Below are positions 23,419 to 52,436 of a DNA stretch of 64,000 bases, piece after piece. The stretch spans positions 36,769 to 100,768 of the forward strand of contig JANPAS010000083.1 of the NCBI GenBank assembly GCA_031430035.1. Direction: 5' to 3'. Position 1 is the stretch's first letter. Each line of letters opens with the position of its first letter. This DNA comes from Comamonadaceae bacterium. Its GTDB lineage: Bacteria; Pseudomonadota; Gammaproteobacteria; Burkholderiales; Burkholderiaceae_C. The position numbers and the translations under genes were made by a program. The notes under the pieces are model-generated. The model saw only the letters and a list, made by a program, of their open reading frames with translations, ran no database searches and was not told the DNA's origin.

Positions 23419-24140
23419 GTAGTATTGTCGCCCTGATCCCCGCCCGTGCCGGCTCTAAGGGGGTTCCCCATAAAAATATCAAGCTCCTGGGCGGACGCCC
23501 CCTAATTGAATGGTCGATCAAGGCCTGCCTGAAATCCCAATTGATCGACCGTGTCATTGTTTCCACGGACTCACCTGAATACGCCGAATTGGCGATAGAA
23601 CTGGGGGCAGAGGCGCCTTTCTTGCGCCCCTCGGAAATTTCAGCCGACCGTTCGACTGATTACGATTTCATTGCGCACGCACTGGACTGGCTCGCTGCCA
23701 ACGGTGGCGAACCGCAGCATGTGGTGCACATCCGTCCCACGACACCATACCGCGATCCTGCTCTGATAGACCAAGCAATCAAGGTTTTTCTCAGCGAAGC
23801 TAAGGCCACGGCGCTGCGCTCGGTGCATGAAATGTCCGAGTCCGCTTACAAGACCTTCGAAATCGCACCGGCAGGCCAGCTCATGCGCCTAGGCAGCGAC
23901 AGCACTGCTCTCGACGCTGCCAATAACGCCCGCCAGCAATTTCCCGCCACCTACCAGGCCAACGGCTACGTGGACGTGCTTTCTTCCCGTTTCATCAGAA
24001 CCAATGGCCTGATTCATGGCGACTGGGTTATGCCTTTTATCACCCCCACCGTGATTGAGGTGGACACGATCGACGATTTTGTTCATCTTGAATTCTTGCT
24101 TGATCGCAATCGCGCATTTTTCGACAAATTATTTACCTGA
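23415..24140 (+). CDS. Acylneuraminate-type cytidylyltransferase (CMP-ulosonic acid synthetase family)
   Basis: IVALIPARAGSKGVPHKNIKLLGGRPLIEWSI and VHIRPTTPYR. The start is the ATG at 23415, overlapping the upstream TGA (ATGA). Confidence 0.75.
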   Translation: MSSIVALIPARAGSKGVPHKNIKLLGGRPLIEWSIKACLKSQLIDRVIVSTDSPEYAELAIELGAEAPFLRPSEISADRSTDYDFIAHALDWLAANGGEPQHVVHIRPTTPYRDPALIDQAIKVFLSEAKATALRSVHEMSESAYKTFEIAPAGQLMRLGSDSTALDAANNARQQFPATYQANGYVDVLSSRFIRTNGLIHGDWVMPFITPTVIEVDTIDDFVHLEFLLDRNRAFFDKLFT

Positions 24141-24148
24141 GGTTATTT

Positions 24149-25537
24149 ATGGCTGGACATGAATTTTCCCGGAGCCCACAGAAGGTTCCGTTTGTAAGCA
24201 CCGAACATCGCACTATCAAGACAGCGATTCCTGCTCCCGGCACCGAGCAGATACTCGCCACTCTGGATTGCTACGAATCGCGTTCCATGCATGGCCAGTT
24301 CCCGCTGATCTGGGACCGTGCGGTGGATTCCAGCGTGTTCGATATCGCCGGCAATCGCTGGATCGATTTCACGTCGACGATTTTTGTCGCCAATGTGGGC
24401 CACTCCAACCCCAGGGTAACGGCCGCCATGCAGGCGATGATGGATGCCCCGATCTACAGTTGCTATGCCTACCCAAACATTAAACGCGCCGAATACCTGA
24501 AGAAGCTGATCGAATTCGCCGGCCCTCCGTTCGAAAAGGCTTTCCTGCTGTCAGCCGGAACCGAAGCCACCGAGGCCGCGCTGAAACTGATACGCATGCA
24601 TGGCCAGAAAATCGGCAAGCGCCGCGGCGGCATCGTCTGCATTGAGGGCAACTGGCATGGCCGCACCATGGGTGCGCAAATGATGAGCAGCAACCTGACC
24701 CAGCGCGAATGGATCGGCTTCCAAGATCAGGATATCCATCACATTCCGTTCCCGTATGCTTGGGCCTTGAACGGGACTAGTCCGGAAGCCTTCCTCGAAG
24801 CGGGCCTGGCGCGTCTAGCCGCATCGGGAATCGACATCGAAAAGGATGTGTCGGGCTTCATGCTGGAAACCTTCCAGGGCTGGGGCGCTGTGTTCTATCC
24901 GAAGGAGTTTGTCCAGGCCATCGAAAAAGTGTGCCGTAAACACAATATCTTGCTCGCCTTTGATGAAATGCAGGCGGGATTCGGCCGCACGGGCCGCCGC
25001 TTCGGGTTTGAGCATTACGAAGTCACACCGGACCTGATCGCTTGCGGCAAAGGCATGGGCGGCGGTGTTTCCCTCTCCGGCGTGCTTGGCCGTGCAGAAG
25101 TCATGGATTTGCCGGATATCGGCAACATGAGCAGTACCCACTCCGCCAATCCGCTGGTCTGCGCTGCGGGCCTGGCGGTAATCGAGGAACTGGAACAGCG
25201 CGACCTCGTCAGCGAGGCGGCTCGCAAGGGAGAGATGCTGTTCGATGCCTTGACCGCGCTGCAGCAGCGTTTCCCTGACCGCATTTCCGCATTGCTTGGC
25301 AAGGGCTTGATTGCTGCCGTACTGTTCCGTTCCCCTGTCACTGGCGCCGCCGATGGAGCCTTTACCAGCCGGGTCGCCGAGCGCTGCATGCAAAAGGGCT
25401 TGCTGGTGGTGCATACTGGGCGAGAGTCGATCAAGATCGGCCCGCCACTGACCATCGCCGATCAAGCCTTGATGGAAGGTGTCGACGTACTGGGCGAGGC
25501 GATCACTGAAATCAGTGCGGAAGTGAACGCAGAATGA
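24149..25537 (+). CDS. Class III (omega-type) PLP-dependent aminotransferase
   Basis: LLSAGTEATEAALKL, GNWHGRTMGA, LAFDEMQAGFGRTGRRFGFEHYEVTPDLIACGKGMGGG (Schiff-base Lys) and STHSANPL. Confidence 0.8.
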   Translation: MAGHEFSRSPQKVPFVSTEHRTIKTAIPAPGTEQILATLDCYESRSMHGQFPLIWDRAVDSSVFDIAGNRWIDFTSTIFVANVGHSNPRVTAAMQAMMDAPIYSCYAYPNIKRAEYLKKLIEFAGPPFEKAFLLSAGTEATEAALKLIRMHGQKIGKRRGGIVCIEGNWHGRTMGAQMMSSNLTQREWIGFQDQDIHHIPFPYAWALNGTSPEAFLEAGLARLAASGIDIEKDVSGFMLETFQGWGAVFYPKEFVQAIEKVCRKHNILLAFDEMQAGFGRTGRRFGFEHYEVTPDLIACGKGMGGGVSLSGVLGRAEVMDLPDIGNMSSTHSANPLVCAAGLAVIEELEQRDLVSEAARKGEMLFDALTALQQRFPDRISALLGKGLIAAVLFRSPVTGAADGAFTSRVAERCMQKGLLVVHTGRESIKIGPPLTIADQALMEGVDVLGEAITEISAEVNAE

Positions 25538-25971
25538 TTAGCGCGATCCGGCATACCGGCCTGGTGGTAGCCGACCTTGAACGGGCGCTGCACTTTTGGT
25601 GCGATGCGCTCGGCTTCAAGGTGGTCAGGCAGATGGAAGAGTCGGGACCCCATATCGACGCCATGATGGGCCTGCACGATGTCCGTGTGACCACCGCCAA
25701 ACTGGCGGCGCCCGACGGCAACCTGATCGAGCTATTGCAGTTTCACTCCCATCCCGACCGGCCGCAGTGGGACGGCGCACCGTATTCGACCGGGTTCACC
25801 CATATCGCCCTGACGGTAGAAGACCTTGACGCACTGGTCGGCAAACTTGCGCCCCTAGGAGTCACTTTCCCGGCACCGCCGCAATATTCACCTGACGGTG
25901 GCGTCAAGGTGATTTATGCTAGAGGCCCCGAGGGGGTCCTCCTCGAACTCGTCGAAATATTGACCAAATGA
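25534..25971 (+). CDS. VOC (glyoxalase/bleomycin-resistance/dioxygenase) family protein
   Basis: IRHTGLVVADLERALHFWCDALGFKV ... FTHIALTVEDLDALVGKL ... GPEGVLLELVE: paired beta-alpha-beta-beta-beta modules. Confidence 0.7.
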   Translation: MISAIRHTGLVVADLERALHFWCDALGFKVVRQMEESGPHIDAMMGLHDVRVTTAKLAAPDGNLIELLQFHSHPDRPQWDGAPYSTGFTHIALTVEDLDALVGKLAPLGVTFPAPPQYSPDGGVKVIYARGPEGVLLELVEILTK

Positions 25972-26948
25972 ACCAGACAACTCACCAGAAACCCCAACAG
26001 AGTACGACAGCCTGTCCTCTCTGCGCATCGGAAAAGAGCGAAATCCTTGTCCAACAGCTGCGACGTGGCTATGGCATGGCGCGCTATTGCCCTGCCTGTG
26101 ATCATGGCTACTTGGTCCAGGAACAGGCCGTGGACGCCAAGGAGTATTACGGCGAACTGTATCGTCAAGAGTATTCCCATAATGCCGAGGCGGCAGCGAC
26201 CCATGCCCGGGAAATATTCCGGGTTTACAAGAACTATCAGCAGGATCGCTTGCATCATATTCTACCCCTCTTGACTGCCAGTTCGCGGCTGTTAGAAGTT
26301 GGTGCCTCCGCAGGACAATTCCTGAGTCATATCAAGCACAAGGTTGGGGAGGTAAATGCCATCGAGCTCGACAAAGCCTGCTGCGCCTTCCTGGGCAGCG
26401 ATCTCGGCATCGATGCGGATGTGGAATTCCTGGAAAACTCGCGCTTTGCCGACCAAACCTACGACGTGGTCTGTGCTTTTCAGGTGATAGAGCATGTCGA
26501 GCAGCCTGTGGCGTTCCTCAAAACCCTCCAGCGGGTCACGAAGAAGGGCGGGACAATCTTCATCGAGGCTCCCAATCTGCGCGATCCCCTGCTATCGGTG
26601 TGGGACGTGCCGACATATCGTAAATTTTTTTATCACAGCGCCCATCTCCATTACTTTACGGAGGCCTCCTTGACCAAGGTGGCACGAGATGCCGGTTTTC
26701 GCGCCGATCAGATAGAAATCAGTTTTACTCAGGACTACAACGTCCTGAATCATCTTCACTGGATCATGAACGATGGCCCCCAATCCGATTGCCATGTGGG
26801 CCTGAGTGAAATAAACCTGCGCGGCCCCAATCAAGAAATCGCGACTTGGTTAACCGAAGAAATGAGAGACGTGAATTGCCGCTACATTGCCAAGCTGGTG
26901 GCGGCGAAATGCACCTCCAACATGCTGATGAAATTGCACTATGAATAA
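25968..26948 (+). CDS. Class I SAM-dependent methyltransferase with N-terminal Cys4 zinc-ribbon
   Basis: CPLC...CPAC, then motif I LLEVGASAGQF, and YDVVCAFQVIEHVEQP / GGTIFIEAPN. Confidence 0.7.
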   Translation: MNQTTHQKPQQSTTACPLCASEKSEILVQQLRRGYGMARYCPACDHGYLVQEQAVDAKEYYGELYRQEYSHNAEAAATHAREIFRVYKNYQQDRLHHILPLLTASSRLLEVGASAGQFLSHIKHKVGEVNAIELDKACCAFLGSDLGIDADVEFLENSRFADQTYDVVCAFQVIEHVEQPVAFLKTLQRVTKKGGTIFIEAPNLRDPLLSVWDVPTYRKFFYHSAHLHYFTEASLTKVARDAGFRADQIEISFTQDYNVLNHLHWIMNDGPQSDCHVGLSEINLRGPNQEIATWLTEEMRDVNCRYIAKLVAAKCTSNMLMKLHYE

Positions 26949-27774
26949 CAAAATCGGTTTCATGCAAGGACGCCTCTCCCCCTTGGTGGACGGGAAAATA
27001 CAGGCCTTCCCCTGGGATACTTGGCAGCAGGAGTTTCCCGCGGCTCAGAGTTTGGGGCTGGGCCTGATGGAATGGACCTTGGATCAGGATCGGCTCTATC
27101 AGAATCCCCTGCTGACGCCCCAAGGCCAGCAGGAGATTCGCCGCCTGTGTCAGGCACATAGGCTGACCATTCCTTCGCTGACTGGGGACTGCTTCATGCA
27201 GGCCCCGTTCTGGAAAGCTGAACATCCTGTAAAGGCAGGCCTCGAGGCGAATTTCATCGCCATAGCCCGCGCCTGCGCTGCGGTCGGTATTGAAATGATC
27301 GTCGTGCCACTGGTTGACAACGGCAAGCTTGAAAATGATCAACAGGAGGATGCGCTGGTCGCCTTCATGCTGGATCAGGCAGACCTGTTTCAGAAGCTCC
27401 GCCTGCGCATCATTTTCGAAAGCGATTTCGTCCCGGATAATCTCGCACGCTTCATCGACCGCCTGCCAGCCGAAACCTTTGGTGTTAACTACGACATCGG
27501 TAACAGTGCGGCATTGGGATTCAATCCCGAGGCAGAATTCGCGGCATATGCTCCCCGTATCATGAATGTGCATATCAAAGACAGGATCCGTGGCGGAACC
27601 ACAGTCGCTCTGGGCAGTGGCAATGCCGACTTCCCGGCGGTCTTTAGTCTGCTACGAGACGCTGCCTACGGCGGTTACTTCATCATGCAAACTGCCCGTG
27701 CTGAAAATGGCGACCATGCCGGTGCCCTGAGTCGGTACATCGGTCAAATCGAGACTTGGACGAAAGGGCTCTGA
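26941..27774 (+). CDS. Sugar-phosphate isomerase/epimerase (xylose-isomerase-like TIM barrel)
   Basis: IGFMQGRLSP, LMEWTLD, IVVPLVDN, IIFESDF, VNYDIGNS, VHIKDR and YFIMQTAR: spaced barrel-strand motifs of this family. Confidence 0.65.
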   Translation: MNNKIGFMQGRLSPLVDGKIQAFPWDTWQQEFPAAQSLGLGLMEWTLDQDRLYQNPLLTPQGQQEIRRLCQAHRLTIPSLTGDCFMQAPFWKAEHPVKAGLEANFIAIARACAAVGIEMIVVPLVDNGKLENDQQEDALVAFMLDQADLFQKLRLRIIFESDFVPDNLARFIDRLPAETFGVNYDIGNSAALGFNPEAEFAAYAPRIMNVHIKDRIRGGTTVALGSGNADFPAVFSLLRDAAYGGYFIMQTARAENGDHAGALSRYIGQIETWTKGL

Positions 27775-27775
27775 T

Positions 27776-28537
27776 ATGCAACTTCAGTTGCAAGGGAAAT
27801 CTGTTCTGGTCACTGGCTCATCCAAGGGGATCGGCCGAGCCATCGCCGAGGCGTTTCTGGCTGAGGGTGCCGAAGTCGCATTCAATGGACGCAATGCCGA
27901 GGACCTTAAGCGTGTCATCGCAGACCAGATCGAGGGCAAAGCTATAGCCGTCGATGGCGATGTAAGCAAACCGCACGGTGCTCGTGAAGTAGTCAACGGT
28001 GTGCTCTCGGCATTTGGGAAGCTTGACGTACTGGTTTGCAATGTCGGCAGCGGTCGGTCAGTGCCTCCGGGCCTAGAGACTCATCAGGAGTGGTTGAAGA
28101 TTTTTGAGCAAAATCTGTGGAGCGCAACTAATATGGTCGAAGCCGCAAAGCATGCACTCATCAAAACCAAAGGTACGATAGTTTGTATTTCTTCTATTTG
28201 CGGTCAAGAGGTCATACTGGGGGCGCCCGTCACCTACTCATCTGCAAAAGCGGCCCTCAACGCGTATGTTCGCGGCATTGCTCGGCCGCTGGGGCAAGAC
28301 GGCGTGAGAATCAATGCCATCGCCCCCGGCAATGTCCTGTTCGAGAACTCTGTCTGGCAAAGAAAGATCAACGAGGATGCCGCTGCTGTCAAGCAGATGC
28401 TGGCGCGCGATGTGGCCCTGTCAAAGCTTGGTACGCCCCAGGATGTCGCCAATCTTGCGCTATGGCTGGCGTCTCCTGCGGCATCGTTTTGCACCGGCAG
28501 CATATTTGTCACGGACGGCGGGCAAGTCCGAAGTTAA
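27776..28537 (+). CDS. Classical SDR oxidoreductase (FabG-like)
   Basis: KSVLVTGSSKGIGRAIA (TGxxxGxG), NVGS, YSSAKAALNAY (YxxxK) and PGNV. Confidence 0.8.
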   Translation: MQLQLQGKSVLVTGSSKGIGRAIAEAFLAEGAEVAFNGRNAEDLKRVIADQIEGKAIAVDGDVSKPHGAREVVNGVLSAFGKLDVLVCNVGSGRSVPPGLETHQEWLKIFEQNLWSATNMVEAAKHALIKTKGTIVCISSICGQEVILGAPVTYSSAKAALNAYVRGIARPLGQDGVRINAIAPGNVLFENSVWQRKINEDAAAVKQMLARDVALSKLGTPQDVANLALWLASPAASFCTGSIFVTDGGQVRS

Positions 28538-28556
28538 GAAACAGATAAGGTGAAAG

Positions 28557-29390
28557 ATGGCTTTTGAGAAATTCGATCTGACCGGCAAGACCGCCCTAAT
28601 TACCGGCGCGGCCGGCTTGCTGGGCATGGAGCACGCGGCGGCGCTGTTAGAGAGCGGCGCGACGGTGGTGCTGACTGACATGAGCGCCACAGCGCTTGAC
28701 GCTGCAGCGCAACGCTTGAGTGAACGCCATGACCGCGCGCGGATCCTGACCACGGTGATGGATGTGACCGATCCAGCGGCCATAGGTGCTGTAGCGAAAA
28801 TGCTGTCCGGACGAGGTTTGCGCGTGGACATTCTGGTCAACAACGCAGCCATCGACCCCAAGGTTAAGGGCGATCATGGAGTTGTGGAGACGTCGCGCCT
28901 TGAACACTTCCCCTTGGATCAATGGAATCTGCAGGTGGCCGTCGGTCTGACCGGTGCATTCCTGTGCAGCCAAGTCTTTGGCAGCGCGATGTCCCAAGAC
29001 GGAAAAGGGGGGGTCATCCTGAACATCGCTTCTGATCTCTCGGTCTTCGCCCCCGACCAGCGGCTCTACCGCAAGGAGAGCTTGCCCGATGAGCTGCAAC
29101 CCGTGAAGCCGGTGACCTATTCGGTGATTAAGGCCGGACTGATCGGATTGACCCGTTATCTGGCCACCTACTGGGCTGACAAGGGCGTGCGATGCAACGC
29201 TCTCTCACCCGGTGGTGTCTACAACGGCCAGGGAGACGAATTCGTCCAGCGGTTGACCTCGCTGATTCCGCTTGGGCGGATGGCCGACAAGGAGGAGTAT
29301 CGGGCTGCGGTGCAGTTTCTCTGCTCGGATGCGTCTGCGTACATGAATGGCCAGAACATAGTCATGGATGGCGGTCGCAGTGTCCTGTAA
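28557..29390 (+). CDS. SDR oxidoreductase
   Basis: KTALITGAAGLLGMEHA, NNAA, YSVIKAGLIGLTRY (YxxxK) and PGGV. Confidence 0.8.
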   Translation: MAFEKFDLTGKTALITGAAGLLGMEHAAALLESGATVVLTDMSATALDAAAQRLSERHDRARILTTVMDVTDPAAIGAVAKMLSGRGLRVDILVNNAAIDPKVKGDHGVVETSRLEHFPLDQWNLQVAVGLTGAFLCSQVFGSAMSQDGKGGVILNIASDLSVFAPDQRLYRKESLPDELQPVKPVTYSVIKAGLIGLTRYLATYWADKGVRCNALSPGGVYNGQGDEFVQRLTSLIPLGRMADKEEYRAAVQFLCSDASAYMNGQNIVMDGGRSVL

Positions 29391-29441
29391 AGAAATGATG
29401 TGGACTGGCCCTGCTCCTAGACGCAAGGCCAGACCCGCACT

Positions 29442-30392
29442 ATGAGCCTTCTTTACGGCATAGGCAGCGTACTGATGCTGCATCGGGTACGTCCTGATTC
29501 CATGGATGACTTCTGCCCGAACCGCGATATGGCCGTCAGCCCGGAATTCCTCGAACGTTTGATTGGCGACGCGCAGCAGCGCGGCCATACCTTTGTCAGT
29601 CTTGATCGGATCTGTGATGCATTACAACGAGGTACAGTGAGCAAGCTCTTGGCACTAACGTTCGACGACGGCTACAGGGACAATCTCACTGTCGCCTACC
29701 CTATCCTCAAACGGCTGGGCATCCCTTTCACGATCTACGTCACCACGTCGTTTCCTGATGGCGAAGCGATCCTCTGGTGGTATGCCATCGAACAGATGCT
29801 GCAGCAAAATGAGCAGATCGCGCTGGCGGATGACAGCGTGCTGCCCTGCCGCACGAGCCAAGAAAAGCTGGATGCCTTTGTCTCTTTGCGGCAGTCGATC
29901 ATGGCGCTGCCCCGTGACGGGCTCGGCGACAGGGTCAATGCGATATTCGAGCGGGTGAATTTCGACTGGCGGCAAATGTGTGCGGAGGAGGCCTTGAGCT
30001 GGGACGATCTTCGCGAACTGGCACGGGATCCCCTGGTGACCATCGGCGCGCATACCGTGAGTCACCCGGTCCTGTCCGCGCTGTCCCCGGAACAGGTCTG
30101 CGCCGAAATGCGCGATAGCCGGGAGCGCATCGAGGCCCACATTGGCGCCCCTGTCACGCACTTTTGTTACCCCTTCGGCAGCCGTAACGAAGTTGGCACC
30201 CGTGAATTTGAACTGGCGCAAGAGCTTGGTTTTAAGACAGCCACCACGACCCGCTGGGGCAATATTTTCCCGAAACACCGCAAGCACCTGCACGGGCTGC
30301 CGCGGGTTGCGCTGACCAATGCCTTTGATTGGAACGATTTTCGTCGCCAGTCGCTCAGGCGTTTCGCGCGCGGACGCGTGGTTACCGTATGA
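29442..30392 (+). CDS. Polysaccharide deacetylase (CE4 / NodB homology domain)
   Basis: LTFDDGYRDN (Asp-Asp motif), GAHTVSHPVLS (His-x-x-x-His-type metal motif) and FCYPFG. Confidence 0.75.
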   Translation: MSLLYGIGSVLMLHRVRPDSMDDFCPNRDMAVSPEFLERLIGDAQQRGHTFVSLDRICDALQRGTVSKLLALTFDDGYRDNLTVAYPILKRLGIPFTIYVTTSFPDGEAILWWYAIEQMLQQNEQIALADDSVLPCRTSQEKLDAFVSLRQSIMALPRDGLGDRVNAIFERVNFDWRQMCAEEALSWDDLRELARDPLVTIGAHTVSHPVLSALSPEQVCAEMRDSRERIEAHIGAPVTHFCYPFGSRNEVGTREFELAQELGFKTATTTRWGNIFPKHRKHLHGLPRVALTNAFDWNDFRRQSLRRFARGRVVTV

Positions 30393-31651
30393 AAATTGCA
30401 ATGCTCAACACCTTCGACAGCGGCGGTGGCGCAGCCCGCTCTGCCTATCGCTTGCACCAAGGACTCTTGCAAAAAGGGGTGGCGTCACGCTTCGTGACCC
30501 AATACAACCAGCAGCGCAACCCCGATATCGTTTGTGGCACCACGCGGTTTCAGAAGCTGGTGGCGTTGCTGCGCCCGTTGGCCGACATGATTCCGATGAA
30601 GATGTACCGGCACCGGGACATGCGGCTGCCGTTTTCCACGGCCTACGTGCCCGTAGCGCGACGGGTTAAGGATGTTGTAGCGCAAGCTGATGTGCTGCAC
30701 TTGCACTGGGTCGTCCACGGCTTCATCAATATCCAGTTCCTGCGCCAGGCGCATCGACCTATCGTCTGGACCATGCATGACTCCTGGACTTTCACCGGCG
30801 GCTGCCATCTGCCGGCGGATTGCCGCCGTTACCAGCAGACCTGTGGCAGTTGCCCGCAATTGGCCTCCGCGCGCGAGGCCGACCTGACGCGCCTGAATTG
30901 GCATTGCAAGCAGCGCGCGTGGAAAGACTTGGACATCATCTTCGTCACGCCGAGCAACTGGATGGCAGAGTGCGCCCGCAGCAGCAGCCTGCTTGCCGGT
31001 CGCCGCGTCGAAGTCATTCCAAACGGCATCGATACCGATGTCTTCAAGCCGGCGGACCGCGCGGTATGTCGGCGCATGATGAACCTGCCTACCGATAGGC
31101 ACCTGATCCTGTTCGGGGCGATGGGCGCCATCACGGACGAAAACAAGGGCTTTGCCCTGCTGCGCCAGGCACTGGCCGCATTGCCGCGCCAGGTAGCCGG
31201 CAAGGACTGCATGCTGGTGGTATTTGGCGCGCAACGGCTCGACCTGCCGGACTTGGATATCGAAGTGCGTTTCATTGGCACCTTGACTGACGATATCGCA
31301 CTGTCGGTGCTGTATTGCGCAGCCGATGTGATGGTGGTTCCGTCCATGCAGGAAAACTTGCCCAACACGATCATGGAGCCGATGGCTTGCGGTACGGCCG
31401 TAGTGGCATTTCGCACCGGTGGCATTCCCGATCTGGTCGAGCATCGCCAGACCGGCTATCTGGCTGAGCCTTTTGATACGGCAGACCTGGCGCGGGGGAT
31501 TACGTGGACATTGGAGCAGTCGGCACTGGATTCCAGTCTAGGGAAAAGTGCGCGAGAAAAAGTCGAGCGGGAGTTTGCCATCGACGTGGTATCGGCTCGT
31601 TACATGAAGCTGTATGCAGAATTGACTGGAGGCGCAGATGGTCGCAAGTAG
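30389..31651 (+). CDS. GT-B glycosyltransferase, family 4-like
   Basis: MKIAMLNTFDSGGGAARSAYRL ... VVPSMQENLPNTIMEPMACGTAVVAFRTGGIPDLV (E-x7-E). The start is the ATG at 30389, overlapping the upstream TGA. Confidence 0.8.
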   Translation: MKIAMLNTFDSGGGAARSAYRLHQGLLQKGVASRFVTQYNQQRNPDIVCGTTRFQKLVALLRPLADMIPMKMYRHRDMRLPFSTAYVPVARRVKDVVAQADVLHLHWVVHGFINIQFLRQAHRPIVWTMHDSWTFTGGCHLPADCRRYQQTCGSCPQLASAREADLTRLNWHCKQRAWKDLDIIFVTPSNWMAECARSSSLLAGRRVEVIPNGIDTDVFKPADRAVCRRMMNLPTDRHLILFGAMGAITDENKGFALLRQALAALPRQVAGKDCMLVVFGAQRLDLPDLDIEVRFIGTLTDDIALSVLYCAADVMVVPSMQENLPNTIMEPMACGTAVVAFRTGGIPDLVEHRQTGYLAEPFDTADLARGITWTLEQSALDSSLGKSAREKVEREFAIDVVSARYMKLYAELTGGADGRK

Positions 31652-32348
31652 AGCTCGTGCATTCGTCAGGCGCATCCTAACTAGGCAATTGACCAGCAGG
31701 CTGGAATTCGAGGATGCCATTGCAGTGACCCCGATCTCCGATGTGTTCGGTCTAGATCGGGGAACGCCGCTGGACAGGGTTTTCATCAATCGCTTTCTTC
31801 AGCAAAACAGGGAAATTATCCGCGGCGACTGCCTTGAAGTGGAGGAGCCTGCCTACACACGAAAATTCGGCCAGCCCGGCCATGTCGCCCATGCGCTCAA
31901 GTTCACGGCCACCCCAGGCGGGGCAGGACAGAATGATGTCGTGGCTGATCTGACCCAGCCGCAGTCAGTGCCGGAAGCGAAATTCGACACATTTATCTGC
32001 ACCCAGACCCTGAATTTCATCTTCGATCTCGACCCAGTAATCGCCTCTATCCACAAGCTGCTGAAGCCCGGTGGGCACGCGCTGATTACGGTAGCGGGCA
32101 TCTCCCAGATTTCCCGCTATGATTACGAGCGCTGGGGGGATTTCTGGCGCTTTACCGATCAGTCGTTGCAAAAGCTGCTGGTTCGGCAGTTTTCCAAGGA
32201 AAACTGCATGCTCACCACGTATGGGAATGTTGCCACCAGTTGTTTATTCCTTCAGGGCGTGTCCTTTGAAGACATTTCTGACAAAAAAATACTCGATTTA
32301 AACGATCAAAATTATCAGATGATCGTTTGTGCTGTTGTCAAAAAATAA
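31638..32348 (+). CDS. SAM-dependent methyltransferase (putative)
   Basis: CLEVEEPAY..., FDTFICTQTLNFIFD and LKPGGHALITVAG resemble motifs I, II and post-II of class I methyltransferases. The substrate is unknown. Confidence 0.55.
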   Translation: MVASRARAFVRRILTRQLTSRLEFEDAIAVTPISDVFGLDRGTPLDRVFINRFLQQNREIIRGDCLEVEEPAYTRKFGQPGHVAHALKFTATPGGAGQNDVVADLTQPQSVPEAKFDTFICTQTLNFIFDLDPVIASIHKLLKPGGHALITVAGISQISRYDYERWGDFWRFTDQSLQKLLVRQFSKENCMLTTYGNVATSCLFLQGVSFEDISDKKILDLNDQNYQMIVCAVVKK

Positions 32349-32358
32349 TATTTATTTA

Positions 32359-33309
32359 ATGAAAATTTCCATTTACGACACGACTATTTGTGATGACAAC
32401 CTTGGCAACCAGATCATCATGGATGCCATAAACCCTGTCATCGATAAAATTTTCCGTGATGCCTTCATCATTAAACTCCAATACCTCGAGAAATTCGGCG
32501 ATATGTCCCATCGTCATATTCGCGAGTCGAAATATACATTCTTCGGCGGCACAAATGCCTTAAGTTCAACGATGAATCGGTATTCTCAAATGGGTTTCAA
32601 CTTGGCCGATACAACCCGTATTAATAACGTGGTGCTCGTTGGGGTTGGTTGGTGGCAGTATCAGAAAAAACCAAACTTTTATACTCGTTACCTGCTAAAA
32701 CGAATTCTCCATCCTGATGCTATTCACTCAGTCCGTGATGAATATACGAAAGATTACCTGCAAAACATTGGGATTAAGAACGTTGTCAATACATCTTGCC
32801 CGACTGTTTGGAATCTCAACAAGAAACATTGCGAAAATATCCCCGCTCACAAGAGCCGTAAAGCCGTGTGCAGCCTAACTGATTATCACCAAGACCCAGT
32901 TTCTGATGCTGCCTTTTTGAGGCTGGTGATCGAAAGATATGAAAAATGCTTTCTATGGTTGCAAGGTGCGGGAGATCGCGAATACTTCGACTCCCTTGAC
33001 CTTCCTGCTGGCGCAATCGAGCTGATACCCCCAAAATTGAGCGCCTATGATCAATTGTTGATGTCGGAAGAAGTCGATTACATCGGGACTCGCCTTCACG
33101 CCGGCGTTCGCGCCCTCCAGCATCGCAGGCGTGCGCTTATTCTTGGTATCGATAACCGTGCACTGGAGATCGGTAAAAACATTGGTTTAAATGTCTGTGA
33201 CCGCAAGGACATTGGTGCAGTTTCTCGTTTCTGCAAGGGGGGTGAAGCCACCCTGCTGAGAATCCCGGAAGAAGAAATCCAGCGCTGGCAGCAGCAATTC
33301 GTCGAATAA
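32359..33309 (+). CDS. Polysaccharide pyruvyl transferase family protein
   Basis: N-terminus ISIYDTTICDDNLGNQIIMDAI and C-terminus DYIGTRLHAGVRALQHRRRALILGIDNRALEI match the conserved ends of the WcaK/CsaB-type family. The start was moved to the ATG at 32359. The gene is markedly AT-rich. Confidence 0.6.
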   Translation: MKISIYDTTICDDNLGNQIIMDAINPVIDKIFRDAFIIKLQYLEKFGDMSHRHIRESKYTFFGGTNALSSTMNRYSQMGFNLADTTRINNVVLVGVGWWQYQKKPNFYTRYLLKRILHPDAIHSVRDEYTKDYLQNIGIKNVVNTSCPTVWNLNKKHCENIPAHKSRKAVCSLTDYHQDPVSDAAFLRLVIERYEKCFLWLQGAGDREYFDSLDLPAGAIELIPPKLSAYDQLLMSEEVDYIGTRLHAGVRALQHRRRALILGIDNRALEIGKNIGLNVCDRKDIGAVSRFCKGGEATLLRIPEEEIQRWQQQFVE

Positions 33310-34461
33310 ATGCGCCCATCATTGCCGAGCAATTTCCCTGAGGGTACGATATTCATAATCGATGGCCTCATGGCCGCATTTACCGTGGCTTTGATGTGCG
33401 CCGGTCGTTCAATCCGGTGCATATACGAGTGCAAGGAAATCCAATGGCGCAATGTTGACTTCGTCGCGCTGTATGATCTTTTGCTGGCAGATGTCGATAT
33501 TCGGGAAAAACGAATTGAGCAGGTGCCCCATCCATATTTTCTCGAAGGCAGAAACCTGCTCGACACCATACGAAAACAACAGGTGTTCATTCGTGGTATC
33601 CGCGAACGGATAGCCCTTGATCCGAGCGAAACCTATTGCGGCTGTACGACCTCGTCAATTCTCCTGGGTAACAAGGATATAGTGCCTCATATCCTGATGG
33701 ATGAGGGGATGGACTCGCTCATGGCGAGACATCGCCTCTATAGTTTGGGACGCGCCAAGTGGAAAGATAGATTACGGGAAACCTTGGCAGGTTGGCTGGT
33801 GCCATTTCGATTTCATCGTGACACCCCCCAAATCACCATGGCTCGCGATGAGCACAGAGCAATCGTCCTTCGCAAAGATTACCGGGGTTTTCGGTCTCAT
33901 CGCTTTGACCTGCTGACTGCTCCCCTGCTTGAGCATCTTGGGCATTCGAGCTTAAATGTATTGACCCTGGTGAAAGGGCCGCAGCATATGTCTGCGACCC
34001 CTCTGTCTGACAAGCAGGATGTTTACTTTAGATACGTGGAGTTCAACCTTCTGGCCATCAAGCGATTCATCGCTCTGCATCCTGCGTACGCCGACGCATG
34101 CTTTTACCTGAAGACCCACCCGAGCTTGGGCGTTGATTCACCCCTAGTGAATTCTTTGATTGCCACCCTCGCCAAGAATTCGATTTGTGCCAGAAATATT
34201 TGGGAGGGTTTGTCTTTTGAAGAGCTTCCCTCCATTCCTGCAGAGGCTTATCTGTCGACTGGGGGATTCAAGGCACTCCTGTCTCTGGACGCGTCGAGTA
34301 CTCTTTGGCATGTCGGCCACGATCCATCTCTGGAGTGCTATATGCCCCTTGATGACATCATCAGCTTGTCCCGTATCGACGGGTCTTCTGCGTTACTCCC
34401 TTTGCTGGCAGGGCAACGGGAACTTAACCGGATCAATGGCAATAACGTGAGATTTTATTAA
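33310..34461 (+). CDS. Hypothetical protein; possible GT-B ulosonic-acid (sialyl/polysialyl-type) transferase
   Basis: I recognise no strong family match. It contains the two short motifs reported for bacterial sialyltransferase families: D/E-D/E-G (HILMDEGMDSL, residues 131-133) and HP (YLKTHPSLG, residues 270-271). An N-terminal strand reads TIFIIDGL. Confidence 0.35.
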   Translation: MRPSLPSNFPEGTIFIIDGLMAAFTVALMCAGRSIRCIYECKEIQWRNVDFVALYDLLLADVDIREKRIEQVPHPYFLEGRNLLDTIRKQQVFIRGIRERIALDPSETYCGCTTSSILLGNKDIVPHILMDEGMDSLMARHRLYSLGRAKWKDRLRETLAGWLVPFRFHRDTPQITMARDEHRAIVLRKDYRGFRSHRFDLLTAPLLEHLGHSSLNVLTLVKGPQHMSATPLSDKQDVYFRYVEFNLLAIKRFIALHPAYADACFYLKTHPSLGVDSPLVNSLIATLAKNSICARNIWEGLSFEELPSIPAEAYLSTGGFKALLSLDASSTLWHVGHDPSLECYMPLDDIISLSRIDGSSALLPLLAGQRELNRINGNNVRFY

Positions 34462-34465
34462 TTTT

Positions 34466-35569
34466 ATGAGTCTGAAAATAGATAAAGTCTGCTTCGTCAT
34501 CGACAGCCCCATGAATGCCATGGTGGCGTCCCTGATCGCGCGAGATGCGTCCTTGGTCGAGGTCATTTATGCTTTTGACCCCCAACGCAAGGACATAGAT
34601 GAATATTTGCAGGTGTCTCGTGCCCTGCTTTCCAACATTAAGCAACGTTCGGAATCGGTGATAGAGTTTGATTCCGTCCGCTTCTGGGGTGGCGAGAAGA
34701 ACGCGCTGCTTCCGGCCGCCCGAAAAGCCTTGGCGCCCCTAATTGAAGACCACGCAGAGGGAACCGTGTATTTCGGAAATTGCCTGACCAATCCGATCGC
34801 CCTGGCTTTGAAGCGCTTTGCCAAGGTCAATCACCTTTACCATGCGCCGGGTGATTTTGTGAGCATGTTGTTTCCACAAGGAAACCCGTTGAAATCAGGT
34901 CTCAAGAATTTGATAAAGCGGATTCTTGGCCTTGAACTCTACAAAATTGAGATCGGAGACTTTCCGGTCTATTCATTGCTGCACTTCGCCTCACAGAAGA
35001 ATTTCCAGCACGTAGATTTTAGGAATTTCTCTTCGGTGGCGGTCGAGACTGTCCTTGCTGAATTGAGCCGAGAACTGGATAGCCCGGGTAAAAATATCAT
35101 GCTCTTGCTGGCGGGGGATGAGCCGGAACCGGGGGACAAGAACCCGTCGAATATCGCCAAATACCTGAAACCCCATTGCCAGGCAGTGGAAATCCTGATG
35201 GATGCTGATGGGCTGGATAGCGCTACGCTGTGGGTCAAGGAGCACAAATCCTACTTTCCCCTGAGTAGCGAGGAACGGTCTCTGTTGGCCGGTGAATTTT
35301 CGAAACTGGGCTGTGCCGTACGCTTTGTCACCGATCATTTGCCCAAGGAGTACCGGTCTCTGCCAGGGGAATGCATTCTCAAGTACGGAAAGGTGGATTA
35401 CGTCGTCGCTGAGCCTTCTGCGTTTTTGTTCAATATCGCGAGCTCATTCGTCACGCCCATCGCAGCCGTAACTCCATTTGCGCCTTATCGGGATGAAGGG
35501 CAACTTGGACGCAATGCCGAATTTATGGCAATCAACCGTCTTCTCGTTCAACCTGCTCGTGTCTATTAA
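34466..35569 (+). CDS. Hypothetical protein; possible divergent paralogue-type partner of the preceding putative transferase
   Basis: Its size and layout resemble 33310-34461: an N-terminal strand KVCFVIDSPMNAMV, a mid-protein LYHAPGDF, and WVKEHKSYFP where the neighbour has THP. The motifs are degenerate. Confidence 0.3.
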   Translation: MSLKIDKVCFVIDSPMNAMVASLIARDASLVEVIYAFDPQRKDIDEYLQVSRALLSNIKQRSESVIEFDSVRFWGGEKNALLPAARKALAPLIEDHAEGTVYFGNCLTNPIALALKRFAKVNHLYHAPGDFVSMLFPQGNPLKSGLKNLIKRILGLELYKIEIGDFPVYSLLHFASQKNFQHVDFRNFSSVAVETVLAELSRELDSPGKNIMLLLAGDEPEPGDKNPSNIAKYLKPHCQAVEILMDADGLDSATLWVKEHKSYFPLSSEERSLLAGEFSKLGCAVRFVTDHLPKEYRSLPGECILKYGKVDYVVAEPSAFLFNIASSFVTPIAAVTPFAPYRDEGQLGRNAEFMAINRLLVQPARVY

Positions 35570-35570
35570 T

Positions 35571-46491: not shown

Positions 46492-46500
46492 GACACTTCT

Positions 46501-49171: not shown

Positions 49172-49207
49172 GGCCTGCCGCACTCCAACCACATTTCAAG
49201 AAACGTG

Positions 49208-51305: not shown

Positions 51306-51348
51306 GACTTGTCTTCCATGCTCTTCATCGATCCGTACCTTGAATAAA

Positions 51349-52404: not shown

Positions 52405-52436
52405 CAAAAATCCAACTTAACATCAGTTTCATTCAA

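What the first reader, a model, noticed from the sequence alone, without database searches (positions are those of the whole stretch)
33310..35569. Two adjacent unannotatable proteins carrying sialyltransferase-type short motifs
ORFs 33310-34461 (383 aa) and 34466-35569 (367 aa) match no family I can name.

The first ORF contains D-E-G at residues 131-133 (HILMDEGMDSL) and H-P at residues 270-271 (YLKTHPSLG). Those are the two short motifs (D/E-D/E-G and HP) shared by bacterial sialyltransferase and polysialyltransferase families. It also has an N-terminal hydrophobic strand (TIFIIDGL) like that in GT-B enzymes.

The second ORF has the same overall layout but degenerate motifs (LYHAPGDF, EHKSYF).

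The locus encodes a CMP-activating enzyme but no recognisable CMP-sugar-dependent transferase. These two proteins are therefore the best candidates for novel ulosonic-acid transferases, possibly working as an active/inactive pair.
Basis: partly seen in the sequence, partly recalled or inferred. Interest (0 to 1): 0.65.

Follow-up and report, generated by a model that had tools for sequence, protein, structure and literature searches.

The report
Two unannotated sialyltransferase-like sugar transferases
Two neighbouring genes with no database annotation encode distant paralogues with the two-domain fold and cytidine-nucleotide-binding residues of bacterial sialyltransferases, so both probably attach a CMP-activated acidic sugar to a surface polysaccharide and represent a rare, so far undescribed enzyme family.

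Summary
ORFs 33310-34461 (383 aa) and 34466-35569 (367 aa) exist, carry the stated motifs, and hit no Pfam, NCBIfam or PDB sequence.

- The two proteins are distant paralogues (hhalign E 9e-11).
- Confident AlphaFold2 models (pLDDT 86 and 90) are both GT-B. For both, the best PDB match is the GT38 polysialyltransferase 5wcn (E 2.5e-10 and 8.3e-10), followed by GT80 and GT52 sialyltransferases.
- ORF1 reproduces the GT38 active-site pattern in order and spacing: D131-E132-G133, K268-x-H270-P271, P-A-E312 and S329-S-T.
- In a 61-member superfamily alignment H270 and E312 are invariant and K268 is nearly so.
- Five of six remote relatives lie within 10 kb of a CMP-sugar synthetase gene, and three of them also near NeuB.

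The "active/inactive pair" idea is not supported. ORF2 keeps the Lys, His, Glu and Ser that contact CMP. It also has the superfamily-typical His (H126) where ORF1 has E132.

The two short motifs alone are weak evidence: about 2.6% of shuffles give them, and a deacetylase in the same window also has them.

Verdict: a rare, unannotated sialyltransferase-like family, probably inverting CMP-ulosonic-acid transferases. Donor, acceptor and linkage are unknown.

The parts
33310..34461 (+). ORF1, 383 aa: predicted GT-B, sialyltransferase-like transferase of the D-E-G subtype
   Evidence: ORF. No Pfam or NCBIfam hit. AF2 pLDDT 85.7, pTM 0.87, two Rossmann-like domains. Foldseek top hit 5wcn_A (GT38), E 2.5e-10, followed by GT80 structures.
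33700..33708 (+). ORF1 D131-E132-G133: putative catalytic-base loop, equivalent to E152-E153-G154 of MhPST
   Evidence: Invariant in 23 family members. Lies between strand 127-130 and helix 134-144. In MhPST the motif lies between beta5 and alpha5a and E153 is the base. In the superfamily, position 132 is His in 51 of 61 members and Glu in 9; G133 is present in 56 of 61.
34111..34122 (+). ORF1 K268-T-H270-P271: the (K/R)xHP motif, predicted to contact the cytosine base and the phosphate
   Evidence: In the superfamily K268 is present in 60 of 61 members, H270 in 61 of 61 and P271 in 42 of 61. hhalign pairs these residues with K289, H291 and P292 of GT38. Roles of K289 and H291 are from PMC5517516. 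The (K/R)XHP motif is described in PMC12887879.
34237..34245 (+). ORF1 P310-A311-E312: predicted ribose-binding Glu, equivalent to P-A-E323 of MhPST
   Evidence: E312 is invariant in 61 of 61 members and P310 is present in 58 of 61. Aligned to FPAE323. E323 binds ribose O2' and O3'.
34294..34302 (+). ORF1 S329-S330-T331: predicted phosphate-binding S-S/T motif, equivalent to S339-T340 of MhPST
   Evidence: Position 329 is Ser or Thr in 60 of 61 members. Aligned within one residue of S339/T340.
34466..35569 (+). ORF2, 367 aa: distant paralogue of ORF1, predicted GT-B sialyltransferase-like transferase of the His-loop subtype
   Evidence: hhalign of A1 against A2 gives probability 97%, E 9e-11, over 329 columns. 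AF2 pLDDT 89.6, pTM 0.89. Foldseek top hits are 5wcn_A (8.3e-10) and 5wc6_A, then 2c83 (GT80) and 2yk5 (GT52).
34841..34855 (+). ORF2 H126-A-P128-G-D130: variant catalytic loop
   Evidence: H126, P128 and D130 are invariant in 28 family members. H126 aligns with E132 of ORF1 and with the His of the superfamily consensus D-H-G-x-G-D/E-Y. D130 aligns with the D/E of that consensus.
35237..35248 (+). ORF2 K258-E-H260-K261: a KxH motif without the proline
   Evidence: K258 and H260 are invariant. Several other superfamily members also have H-K or H-R at this position.
35363..35371 (+). ORF2 P300-G-E302: predicted ribose-binding Glu
   Evidence: Invariant in the family and aligned with E312 of ORF1.
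35417..35419 (+). ORF2 S318: predicted phosphate-binding Ser
   Evidence: Invariant in the family and aligned with S329 of ORF1.
23367..24140 (+). CMP-sugar synthetase (CTP_transf_3): presumed maker of the donor
   Evidence: Pfam PF02348, E 1.2e-22. The same family lies near 5 of 6 remote relatives.
20930..22822 (+). NeuB + SAF + xylose-isomerase-like TIM-barrel fusion: ulosonic acid synthase
   Evidence: Pfam PF03102, E 7.6e-85, plus PF01261.
24149..33309 (+). Block that travels with the pair: aminotransferase III, glyoxalase, methyltransferase, AP_endonuc_2, two SDRs, deacetylase, GT4, methyltransferase, pyruvyl transferase
   Evidence: Pfam assignments. Synteny is kept in L002-L005 and in part in L001.

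Best explanation
ORF1 and ORF2 are two distantly related paralogues (about 21% identity). They belong to a rare, unannotated family of soluble GT-B glycosyltransferases in the same structural class as the bacterial sialyltransferases of GT38, GT52 and GT80.

**Proposed mechanism (inferred)**
- Each binds a CMP-activated 2-ulosonic acid in its C-terminal Rossmann domain.
- Lys of K-x-H contacts the cytosine.
- Glu of P-x-E binds the ribose hydroxyls.
- His of K-x-H, together with the Ser (S329 in ORF1, S318 in ORF2), stabilises the phosphate leaving group.
- The sugar is transferred with inversion to an acceptor hydroxyl. That hydroxyl is activated by a general base on the loop after the fifth strand of the N-domain. 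The base would be E132 in ORF1 and H126 (perhaps with D130) in ORF2.

**Donor (inferred)**
- The most likely donor is the product of the NeuB fusion and CMP-sugar synthetase pathway encoded 9-12 kb upstream.
- Both enzymes are probably active. They would then add two residues, or make two linkages, in one O-antigen-like polysaccharide.

**Shown:** the ORFs, their paralogy, the predicted fold, the structural neighbours, residue conservation, and the genomic association with CMP-sugar synthetase genes.

**Inferred:** CMP binding, the inverting mechanism, the identity of donor and acceptor, and activity of both copies.
For: **Paralogy.** hhalign probability 97%, E 9e-11. ORF1-like proteins at about 38% identity bridge the two families by BLAST.

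**Fold.** The AF2 models have pLDDT 85.7 and 89.6 and pTM 0.87 and 0.89.

**Structural neighbours.** Foldseek against PDB gives 5wcn (GT38) as the top hit for both, at E 2.5e-10 and 8.3e-10 with TM 0.56-0.61. Next come GT80 (4r83, 2ex0, 2c83) and GT52 (2yk5).

**Residue correspondence with MhPST (PMC5517516).**
- E152-E153-G corresponds to D131-E132-G.
- K289-x-H291-P292 corresponds to K268-x-H270-P271.
- P-A-E323 corresponds to P310-A-E312.
- S339-T340 corresponds to S329-S330.
- The spacing from base to His is the same, 138 residues.

**Profile alignment.** hhalign of the C-domains, superfamily against GT38, gives E 1.5e-5 and probability 80%, and pairs exactly these residues.

**Conservation in the 61-member superfamily.** H270 and E312 are in 61 of 61, K268 in 60 of 61, P310 in 58 of 61, Ser/Thr329 in 60 of 61 and G133 in 56 of 61. 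The loop consensus D-H-G-x-G-D/E-Y resembles GT38's E-E-G-T-G-T-Y.

**Gene context.**
- Only these two ORFs in the window match the family.
- The window has a CMP-sugar synthetase and NeuB but no other candidate CMP-sugar transferase.
- A CTP_transf_3 gene lies within 10 kb of 5 of 6 remote family members. NeuB lies within 10 kb of 3 of 6. These sit in otherwise different clusters.
- L008 even shares the SIS, SDR, AP_endonuc_2, SDR and CMP-synthetase module.
Against: - There is no experimental evidence and no ligand-bound model.
- I could not superpose coordinates, so residue equivalences rest on profile alignment, spacing and predicted secondary structure.
- Sequence similarity to GT38 is marginal. 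The full-length hhalign has probability 29% and E 6e-4. The N-domain alone is not significant, at E 0.03.
- No Pfam sialyltransferase model matches, even at E<=10.
- One remote relative (L012) shows no CMP-synthetase gene in 17 kb.
- In L001 (Rhodobacterales) none is visible within 10 kb upstream.
- There is one CMP-sugar synthetase for two transferases, which needs explaining.
- ORF2 lacks the Pro of HP and the second Ser/Thr.
- DEG and HP motifs misled others in B. subtilis SpsB.
Confidence: 0.72

Rival explanations
1. Active/inactive pair. ORF1 is the catalyst. ORF2 is a catalytically dead paralogue that acts as a scaffold, chaperone or acceptor-binding partner.
For: ORF2 lacks a D/E-D/E-G triplet at the aligned position, lacks the Pro of HP and lacks the second Ser/Thr. 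The two genes are adjacent in every locus where the gene next to ORF2 could be seen (L001-L006). Only one CMP-sugar synthetase is encoded.
Against: ORF2 keeps all four residues that correspond to the CDP-contacting side chains of MhPST: K258, H260, E302 and S318. Its loop residues H126 and D130 match the majority consensus of the 61-member superfamily, where His is in 51 of 61 members, whereas ORF1's Glu is the minority state. These residues are invariant across 28 ORF2-family members down to 51% identity. That is the pattern expected of an active site under selection. Proline after the His is missing in 19 of 61 superfamily members.
Confidence: 0.1
2. Retaining ulosonic-acid transferases of the beta-Kdo / alpha-Pse type. 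These resemble GT99 WbbB, GT107 KpsC/KpsS, GT118 KpsS1 and GT140 KrkA, and work through a covalent Asp adduct rather than by inversion.
For: Those families also carry the (K/R)xHP motif and a sialyltransferase-like GT-B core, and they occur in ABC-transporter-dependent polysaccharide loci (PMC12887879; PMC5517516). This locus has a fused ABC transporter.
Against: No GT99, GT107 or GT140 structure appears among the Foldseek hits listed for either protein. The best matches are the inverting GT38, GT80 and GT52 enzymes. The N-domain is a complete Rossmann domain, and its acidic or His loop sits at the position of the GT38/GT80 general base. Pfam Capsule_synth is not matched.
Confidence: 0.1
3. 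Transferases that use a CDP-activated donor. The donor could be the CDP-linked branched or dideoxy sugar made by genes 44387-49171, or a CDP-polyol as in TagF-like enzymes. It would not be a CMP-ulosonate.
For: In L001, L002 and L006 the pair is directly followed by an NTP_transferase, dehydratase, E1-like DegT and split-transketolase set. MhPST itself was crystallised with CDP. Weak Foldseek hits include TagF-like enzymes, 8a0m at 5.7e-4 and 8va1 at 0.02.
Against: In L003, L004 and L005 that CDP-sugar set does not follow the pair. Remote relatives associate with CTP_transf_3, the family of CMP-NulO and CMP-Kdo synthetases, in 5 of 6 loci. Sialyltransferase hits are 6 or more orders of magnitude better than TagF-like hits. 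Pfam Glyphos_transf is matched by only one of 61 members, at E 0.04.
Confidence: 0.07
4. Not glycosyltransferases at all. They would be GT-B-fold nucleotide-sugar 2-epimerases or hydrolases of the NeuC/PseG type, supplying the free sugar that NeuB needs.
For: The NeuB module lacks an adjacent NeuC- or PseG-type enzyme. Foldseek lists 2-epimerases, 8sy0 and 8sxw at about 1.5e-5 for ORF2, and NeuC (5xvs, 5zlr) at about 1e-3 for ORF1.
Against: The epimerase hits are 4 or more orders of magnitude weaker than the polysialyltransferase hits. Pfam Epimerase_2 is not matched, although a true Epimerase_2 gene exists at 59452-60576. The conserved K-x-H, P-x-E and S pattern is the CMP-binding signature of sialyltransferases. 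In L011 and L013 a relative coexists with a genuine NeuC homologue.
Confidence: 0.04

Closest known systems
GT38 bacterial polysialyltransferases (M. haemolytica SiaD/MhPST, PDB 5wcn/5wc6; E. coli K1 NeuS; N. meningitidis B SiaD)
   Same: They are the best structural match for both proteins, with the same two-Rossmann GT-B architecture. The order and spacing of the catalytic-base loop, K-x-H-P, P-A-E and S-S/T are the same. The superfamily loop D-H-G-x-G-D/E-Y resembles GT38's E-E-G-T-G-T-Y.
   Different: No HMM-level sequence similarity was found against Pfam or PDB. The ~20-residue N-terminal segment of MhPST that was deleted in the crystallised Delta20 construct has no counterpart here. The GT38 enzymes are strongly basic (pI 9.6-9.7). 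ORF1 has pI 7.7 and ORF2 6.1, and the ORF2 family median is 6.3. This argues against a long polyanionic acceptor groove. Most family members use His rather than Glu at the base position. The gene context is an O-antigen-like heteropolysaccharide locus rather than a group 2 capsule locus.
GT80 (P. multocida PmST1, Photobacterium sialyltransferases) and GT52 (Neisseria Lst/NST) monosialyltransferases
   Same: They are the second tier of Foldseek hits, at E 7e-7 to 3e-5. They share the D/E-D/E-G and HP motifs and the inverting mechanism, with an Asp or Glu base and a His that stabilises CMP (PMC2169525; PMC5517516). They are probably single-addition enzymes, as inferred here.
   Different: No sequence similarity was detected. 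GT80 has about 50 more residues between the two motifs, whereas ORF1's spacing equals that of GT38.
Retaining ulosonic-acid transferases GT99 (WbbB), GT107 (KpsC/KpsS), GT118 (KpsS1, Pse) and GT140 (KrkA)
   Same: They have a sialyltransferase-like GT-B core and the (K/R)xHP motif, use CMP-ulosonate donors, and were recognised as new CAZy families on structural rather than sequence grounds (PMC12887879).
   Different: They are described as highly modified GT-B folds that use a covalent Asp nucleophile. They are not among the Foldseek hits listed here.
Maf/FlmG flagellin nonulosonic-acid transferases and the TagB-like NulO transferases proposed in Tannerella
   Same: They are candidate transferases for Pse or Leg type sugars, encoded next to NulO biosynthesis genes.
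   Different: Their folds and families differ, and their acceptors are proteins. No flagellar genes occur in this window.

Membership tests
GT-B fold glycosyltransferases | Two Rossmann-like beta/alpha/beta domains with an interdomain cleft | tested here: met
   The AF2 models have pLDDT 85.7 and 89.6 and pTM 0.87 and 0.89, with alternating strand and helix pattern in two halves. At E<=1e-3 the Foldseek hits are GT-B-fold enzymes, apart from one low-probability Cad1 hit for ORF2.
Sialyltransferase-like GT-B class (GT38/GT52/GT80) | HP, or (K/R)xHP, motif after a C-domain strand, with the His contacting the CMP phosphate | tested here: met
   ORF1 has K268-T-H270-P271 after strand 264-268, invariant in its family. 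ORF2 has K258-E-H260-K261, so Lys and His are kept but Pro is lost. In the superfamily His is in 61 of 61, Lys in 60 of 61 and Pro in 42 of 61. Contact with CMP itself was not testable.
Sialyltransferase-like GT-B class (GT38/GT52/GT80) | D/E-D/E-G motif in the N-domain loop, carrying the general base | tested here: inconclusive
   ORF1 meets it: D131-E132-G133, invariant, between strand 127-130 and helix 134-144. ORF2 does not: it has Y125-H126-A127 at the aligned columns. The superfamily majority is D-H-G. His could serve as the base, but this is an inference.
Sialyltransferase-like GT-B class (GT38/GT52/GT80) | Glu binding the ribose 2'/3'-OH, and Ser-Ser/Thr binding the phosphate | tested here: met
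   E312 in ORF1 and E302 in ORF2 are invariant in 61 of 61 members. S329 in ORF1 and S318 in ORF2 are Ser or Thr in 60 of 61. The second position is Ser or Thr in 40 of 61, and is S330 in ORF1 and A319 in ORF2. They align to E323 and S339/T340 of MhPST.
GT38 (CAZy) / Pfam alpha-2,8-polysialyltransferase | Significant sequence similarity to family members | tested here: not met
   No Pfam hit at E<=1 for the two proteins, at E<=10 for 36 relatives, or at E<=1 for 61 relatives. No PDB sequence hit to 5wcn with single sequences or profiles. Profile-profile comparison is marginal only: full length E 6e-4 and probability 29%; C-domain E 1.5e-5 and probability 80%; N-domain E 0.03.
GT38 (CAZy) / Pfam alpha-2,8-polysialyltransferase | Polymerase with an extended basic acceptor groove | tested here: inconclusive
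   Only bulk charge could be tested. GT38 proteins have pI 9.6-9.7. ORF1 has 7.7 and ORF2 6.1, with family medians of 8.3 and 6.3. Surface electrostatics could not be computed.
GT52, GT80, and Pfam 05855 (H. ducreyi Lst-like sialyltransferases) | Significant sequence similarity to family members | tested here: not met
   No Pfam hit. Similarity is structural only.
Retaining Kdo/Pse transferases (GT99/107/118/140) | Structural or sequence similarity to family members (modified GT-B fold with a catalytic Asp nucleophile) | tested here: not met
   They do not appear among the Foldseek hits listed for either protein. Pfam Capsule_synth is not matched. The nucleophile itself is not testable in silico.
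CMP-ulosonic-acid-dependent transferase (functional class) | Uses a CMP-activated 2-ulosonic acid as donor | not testable with these tools
   Indirect support only: the CMP-binding residue pattern, and CTP_transf_3 within 10 kb in the window and in 5 of 6 remote relatives' loci.

The most novel reading that the evidence does not exclude
The pair founds a new CAZy-level glycosyltransferase family whose typical catalytic base is a histidine (loop D-H-G-x-G-D/E-Y). The family would be dedicated to installing non-canonical ulosonic acids. In this window the sugar would be an aminated and methylated acid made by an unusual pathway: a NeuB-TIM-barrel fusion with SIS, aminotransferase and SDR enzymes. 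The two paralogues would add it in two different linkages within one O-antigen. The family would then supply missing transferases for bacterial sialic-acid-like sugars in heteropolysaccharides.
Probability: 0.35. Interest if true: 0.7.

Novelty: new variant of a known kind. Interest (0 to 1): 0.58.

Why it matters
Transferases for bacterial sialic-acid-like sugars (legionaminic and pseudaminic acids, Kdo variants and rarer acids) are poorly known compared with the biosynthetic enzymes. Authors in the field say so explicitly (PMC5420450 abstract; PMC7439481).

New CAZy families for such enzymes (GT99, GT107, GT118, GT140) have each needed structural work to recognise them.

This is a compact family with no Pfam, NCBIfam or source annotation. 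It numbers about 93 clusters at 50% identity among 1.84 billion representatives. It has a clear sialyltransferase-like active-site signature, and five of six remote members examined lie within 10 kb of a CMP-sugar synthetase gene.

If confirmed:
- it would allow 'hypothetical' genes in O-antigen and capsule loci to be annotated;
- it would supply enzymes for chemoenzymatic synthesis of rare nonulosonosides;
- it would offer a natural Glu/His variation at the general-base position for mechanistic study.

Tried and rejected
**Direct family assignment.**
- Pfam and NCBIfam scans of both proteins gave nothing.
- Pfam scans of 36 and 61 relatives also gave nothing. The only real hit was the GT4 half of a fusion protein (P0122).

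**PDB sequence searches.** Single sequences and three profiles (A1, A2, A3, A5) gave only chance hits.

**A third word-indexed homologue search** with the merged profile added no new members.

**Species genomes.** The search for ORF1 relatives among 185,579 species genomes found none. The search for ORF2 found two. This shows rarity but gave little for co-occurrence statistics.

**N-domain alignment.** hhalign of the N-terminal domain alone against GT38 was not significant (E 0.03, probability 1.6%), although it does put D-H-G-T-G-D-Y over E-E-G-T-G-T-Y. I do not count it as evidence of homology.

**Coordinates.** I could not obtain model or PDB coordinates in the sandbox, so no residue-level superposition was done.

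**Literature.** Searches for a described family of this kind, or for the Laribacter glycan, found nothing specific.

**Readings considered and rejected:**
- a membrane anchor at ORF1 residues 14-32. The segment is hydrophobic (KD 2.07) but is modelled confidently as beta1-alpha1 of the Rossmann fold;
- a third paralogue in the window. None was found.

Full report
**1. The observation**

Both ORFs are real and lie at the stated coordinates. ORF1 is 33310-34461 (383 aa) and ORF2 is 34466-35569 (367 aa), both on the + strand. They are tightly packed in a long + strand operon. ORF1's ATG directly follows the stop of the upstream pyruvyl-transferase gene, and ORF2's ATG is 4 nt after ORF1's stop.

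The quoted peptides are correct:
- ORF1 has D131-E132-G133 in HILMDEGMDSL and H270-P271 in YLKTHPSLG.
- ORF2 has LYHAPGDF at 124-131 and EHKSYF at 259-264.

Neither protein matches any Pfam or NCBIfam model at E<=1. Neither has a meaningful PDB sequence match. ORF1 has no hit at E<=10, and ORF2's only hit is an unrelated plant protein at E 0.78.

The window encodes a CMP-sugar synthetase (CTP_transf_3, 23367-24140) and a NeuB fusion (20930-22822). Its recognisable glycosyltransferases are GT4, GT2, GT10 and Bac_transf types only.

The bare motif observation is weak:
- An ordered [DE][DE]G...HP pair with 100-200 aa spacing arises in 2.6% of shuffles of ORF1.
- It is also present in the neighbouring polysaccharide deacetylase.
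- ORF1 has three HP dipeptides.
- The literature holds a cautionary case. B. subtilis SpsB carries DEG and HP yet is not needed for legionaminic acid transfer (PMC7439481).

**2. What the proteins are**

*Homologues.* ORF1 has 23 homologous 90% clusters and ORF2 has 56, among 5.8 billion clusters. Every one that carries a source name is called 'hypothetical protein', and none has a Pfam domain.

*Conservation within each family.*
- In ORF1's family D131, E132, G133, K268, H270, P271, P310, A311, E312 and S330 are invariant, and S329 is nearly so (90% or more).
- In ORF2's family H123, Y125, H126, P128, D130, F131, K258, E259, H260, S262, P300, E302 and S318 are invariant.

*Paralogy.* The two families are homologous over nearly their full length (hhalign probability 97%, E 9e-11, 329 columns). 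ORF1-like proteins of about 38% identity from other loci bridge them by plain BLAST. They are therefore old paralogues, about 21% identical.

*Superfamily.* An exhaustive profile search of 1.84 billion representatives found only 93 clusters at E<=1e-3. This is a small superfamily. No member scanned has a relevant Pfam hit, and the 20 remote members looked up are unnamed or 'hypothetical'.

**3. Fold**

AlphaFold2 used merged alignments of 30 and 36 sequences. It gave confident models: ORF1 with pLDDT 85.7 and pTM 0.87, and ORF2 with pLDDT 89.6 and pTM 0.89. Each has two alternating strand/helix domains, which is the GT-B architecture.

Foldseek against the PDB gave these results:
- For both proteins the top hit is the GT38 polysialyltransferase of Mannheimia haemolytica (5wcn). 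ORF1 scores E 2.5e-10 and TM 0.56. ORF2 scores E 8.3e-10 and TM 0.61.
- GT80 sialyltransferases follow (4r83, 2ex0, 4r9v, 2c83), then GT52 NST (2yk5).
- Only then come generic GT-B enzymes, namely plant UGTs, VldE and 2-epimerases, at 10^3 to 10^6-fold worse E-values.

The refutation criterion 'the predicted fold is not GT-B' is therefore not met.

**4. Residue-level comparison with GT38**

Lizak et al. (PMC5517516) assign these roles in MhPST:
- E153, of E152-E153-G on the beta5/alpha5a loop, is the general base.
- K289 reads the cytosine.
- H291 of the HP motif contacts the phosphate.
- E323 binds the ribose hydroxyls.
- S339 and T340 bind the phosphate.

I rebuilt the MhPST sequence from their Supplementary Fig. 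S4. I corrected it against the PDB chain. The published numbering was reproduced.

| Role | MhPST | ORF1 | ORF2 |
|---|---|---|---|
| Base loop | E152-E153-G | D131-E132-G133 | Y125-H126-A127 (D130 follows) |
| Cytosine / phosphate | K289-x-H291-P292 | K268-x-H270-P271 | K258-x-H260-K261 |
| Ribose | P-A-E323 | P310-A311-E312 | P300-G-E302 |
| Phosphate | S339-T340 | S329-S330-T331 | S318 |

ORF1 has the same elements in the same order:
- D131-E132-G133 lies between strand 127-130, the fifth strand of the N-domain, and helix 134-144.
- K268-x-H270-P271 follows strand 264-268.
- The distance from base to His is 138 residues in both ORF1 and MhPST.

Profile-profile alignment of the 61-member superfamily against three GT38 sequences pairs K268/K289, H270/H291, P271/P292, P-A-E312/P-A-E323 and S-S/S-T:
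- Full length: E 6e-4 and probability 29%.
- C-terminal domains alone: E 1.5e-5 and probability 80%.
- N-terminal domain: not significant (E 0.03). It does place the superfamily consensus D-H-G-x-G-D/E-Y over GT38's E-E-G-T-G-T-Y.

Across 61 diverse superfamily members:

| Position (ORF1 numbering) | Conservation |
|---|---|
| H270 | 61 of 61 |
| E312 | 61 of 61 |
| K268 | 60 of 61 |
| P310 | 58 of 61 |
| Ser/Thr329 | 60 of 61 |
| G133 | 56 of 61 |
| Residue 132 | His in 51, Glu in 9 |
| P271 | 42 of 61 |

The K-x-H-P element is the (K/R)XHP motif described as common to sialyltransferases and retaining Kdo transferases (PMC12887879).

**5. Is ORF2 a dead copy?**

The evidence says no.
- ORF2 retains K258, H260, E302 and S318. 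These are the counterparts of all four MhPST side chains that contact CDP.
- At the base position it has H126, which is the majority state of the superfamily. It also has D130 at the D/E position of the consensus loop.
- Loss of the proline after His occurs in about a third of superfamily members.
- ORF2's family is larger than ORF1's, and its motif residues are invariant down to 51% identity.

ORF1, with Glu at the base position, is the GT38-like minority variant. I therefore read the pair as two active enzymes with different catalytic loops, and presumably different acceptors or linkages.

**6. Genomic evidence for a CMP-sugar donor**

*The pair and its block.* An ORF1-type gene sits immediately upstream of the ORF2-type gene in all six other loci where that position could be seen: Rhodobacterales LSUCC0387, Laribacter hongkongensis, three metagenomic contigs and a Lacisediminimonas MAG. 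In the five of those loci with upstream sequence the pair follows a conserved deacetylase and GT4 (with a methyltransferase gene in between). In four of them it also follows the aminotransferase-glyoxalase-methyltransferase-AP_endonuc_2-SDR-SDR block that continues the NeuB / CMP-synthetase module of the window.

*Remote relatives.* Members at 17-23% identity from unrelated clusters give an independent test.

| Locus | CTP_transf_3 within 10 kb | NeuB within 10 kb | Notes |
|---|---|---|---|
| L008/L009 | yes | yes | also SIS, two SDRs and AP_endonuc_2 homologous to the window's |
| L011 | yes | yes | with NeuC, PglD-like and PtmE-like genes; a legionaminic-type set |
| L013 | yes | yes | with NeuC |
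| L014 | yes | no | |
| L015 | yes | no | |
| L012 | no | no | IS-riddled 17-kb contig |

So 5 of 6 have a CMP-sugar synthetase gene within 10 kb, and 3 of 6 have NeuB.

*CDP-sugar alternative.* The pair is followed by the CDP-sugar gene set in some loci (L001, L002, L006) but not in others (L003-L005). This weakens a CDP-sugar donor hypothesis.

*Other copies.* Only ORF1 and ORF2 in the window match the superfamily HMM.

**7. Setting**

The window is a chromosomal stretch of a betaproteobacterium-like genome. Genes at 45-54 kb are 88-97% identical in protein sequence to a Lacisediminimonas MAG.

A polysaccharide locus of about 52 kb runs from a PglF-like gene and Bac_transf at 9.1-11.7 kb on the minus strand. 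It then runs through a MarR-like gene at 12.1 kb and a fused ABC exporter at 17.0 kb. It ends at rmlBDAC and a NusG/RfaH-like gene at 60.6-64 kb.

Both proteins lack convincing transmembrane segments. They are near-neutral in charge, unlike the strongly basic GT38 polymerases. This mildly favours single additions over synthesis of a polyanionic homopolymer.

**8. Mechanism proposed**

- Shown: the ORFs, paralogy, predicted GT-B fold, sialyltransferase structural neighbours, conservation of the CMP-site pattern, and association with CMP-sugar synthetases.
- Inferred: each enzyme binds a CMP-beta-ulosonate in the C-domain and transfers it with inversion. His270 (His260 in ORF2) and the Ser (S329 in ORF1, S318 in ORF2) stabilise CMP. 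E132 (ORF1) or H126/D130 (ORF2) deprotonates the acceptor hydroxyl.
- Inferred: the donor is the product of the upstream NeuB fusion / CMP-synthetase pathway.
- Inferred: two enzymes exist because two residues or two linkages are made, or because one of them uses another CMP-sugar such as CMP-Kdo.

Confidence is about 0.72 for 'CMP-ulosonate GT-B transferases'. It is lower for every specific detail.

**9. Comparison with known families, and novelty**

These proteins work like GT38, GT52 and GT80 sialyltransferases, and structurally they sit nearest GT38. They fail the sequence-similarity criterion that defines membership of any of those families. I therefore do not file them as GT38.

They also do not resemble the modified folds of the retaining Kdo/Pse transferases (GT99, GT107, GT118, GT140).

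I could not query CAZy. A recently created family might already include them, but no Pfam model, NCBIfam model, PDB sequence or retrieved paper does.

I rate this as a new variant, at family level, of a known kind of enzyme. It is moderately interesting to glycobiologists because cognate transferases for bacterial nonulosonic and related acids are scarce.

Noticed in passing
window 33310-35569 compared with L006 180-2425; window 45154-53888 compared with L006 4306-12425: A Lacisediminimonas MAG shares 88-97% protein identity with the window downstream of the pair (E1-like, split transketolase, epimerase, GT10, GT2, GT4, unk483). At the pair itself identity is only 65% for ORF2 and 37% for the ORF1-like gene. 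The locus is mosaic, and the pair lies in a swapped, serotype-like variable segment.
   Followed up: partly
window 32329-33309; L001 7421-8815; L004 7470-8831: The ORF1 subtype covaries with its upstream gene. The 383-aa type follows a polysaccharide pyruvyl transferase (window, L002, L003, L005). The 392-398-aa type (about 38% identical, still D-E-G) follows an unannotated 453-464-aa protein (L001, L004). This suggests the upstream enzyme modifies the residue or the acceptor that ORF1 handles.
   Followed up: partly
window 18820-29390; L008 13200-19404: There is a non-canonical ulosonic acid pathway. It comprises NeuB fused to a xylose-isomerase-like TIM barrel (630 aa), a CBS-GHMP kinase, an NTP_transferase, a GmhA-like SIS protein, a CMP-synthetase, a class III aminotransferase, a glyoxalase, a methyltransferase, a second TIM barrel and two SDRs. 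No NeuC- or PseB-type enzyme is adjacent. A related module (SIS-phosphatase, SDR, TIM barrel, SDR, CMP-synthetase, aminotransferase, NeuB) sits beside the remote relative P0103. The sugar made is unknown.
   Followed up: partly
window 44387-49171: An NTP_transferase, a 445-aa E1-like DegT, split transketolase N and C subunits and a reductase sit together. This looks like a CDP-linked dideoxy or two-carbon-branched sugar pathway of the yersiniose type. The assignment is from my own knowledge and was not tested. The set is conserved in L001, L002 and L006.
   Followed up: no
window 52437-56365: Two large ORFs (483 and 825 aa) have no Pfam hit and lie in the most T-rich stretch of the coding strand in the window (AT skew -0.19 to -0.27). 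Homologues are present in L004 and L006. They may be integral membrane proteins such as a polymerase, ligase or GT-C enzyme.
   Followed up: no
window 36786-37748: A 320-aa protein has no Pfam or NCBIfam hit but carries an N-terminal GAGELG dinucleotide-binding-like motif. It is conserved close downstream of the pair in L003 (32% identity) and L005 (44%), and a distant relative (26%) lies among GFO_IDH genes in L011.
   Followed up: no
window 29442-30392: The polysaccharide deacetylase also contains a [DE][DE]G...HP pair at 133-aa spacing. This is a concrete false positive for the two-motif rule.
   Followed up: yes
window 35478-36767: The mechanical ORF for the GT2-like TIGR04440 protein starts at TTG 35478 and overlaps ORF2 by 92 nt. 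The gene call on the source contig starts at 35514 (417 aa), so the true start is probably later.
   Followed up: partly
L003 12342-18002: One metagenomic locus carries, just downstream of the pair, a second canonical NeuB, SDR, CMP-synthetase and NeuC set plus a B12-radical SAM enzyme. That cluster may therefore make two different CMP-ulosonic acids, which would fit having two transferases.
   Followed up: no
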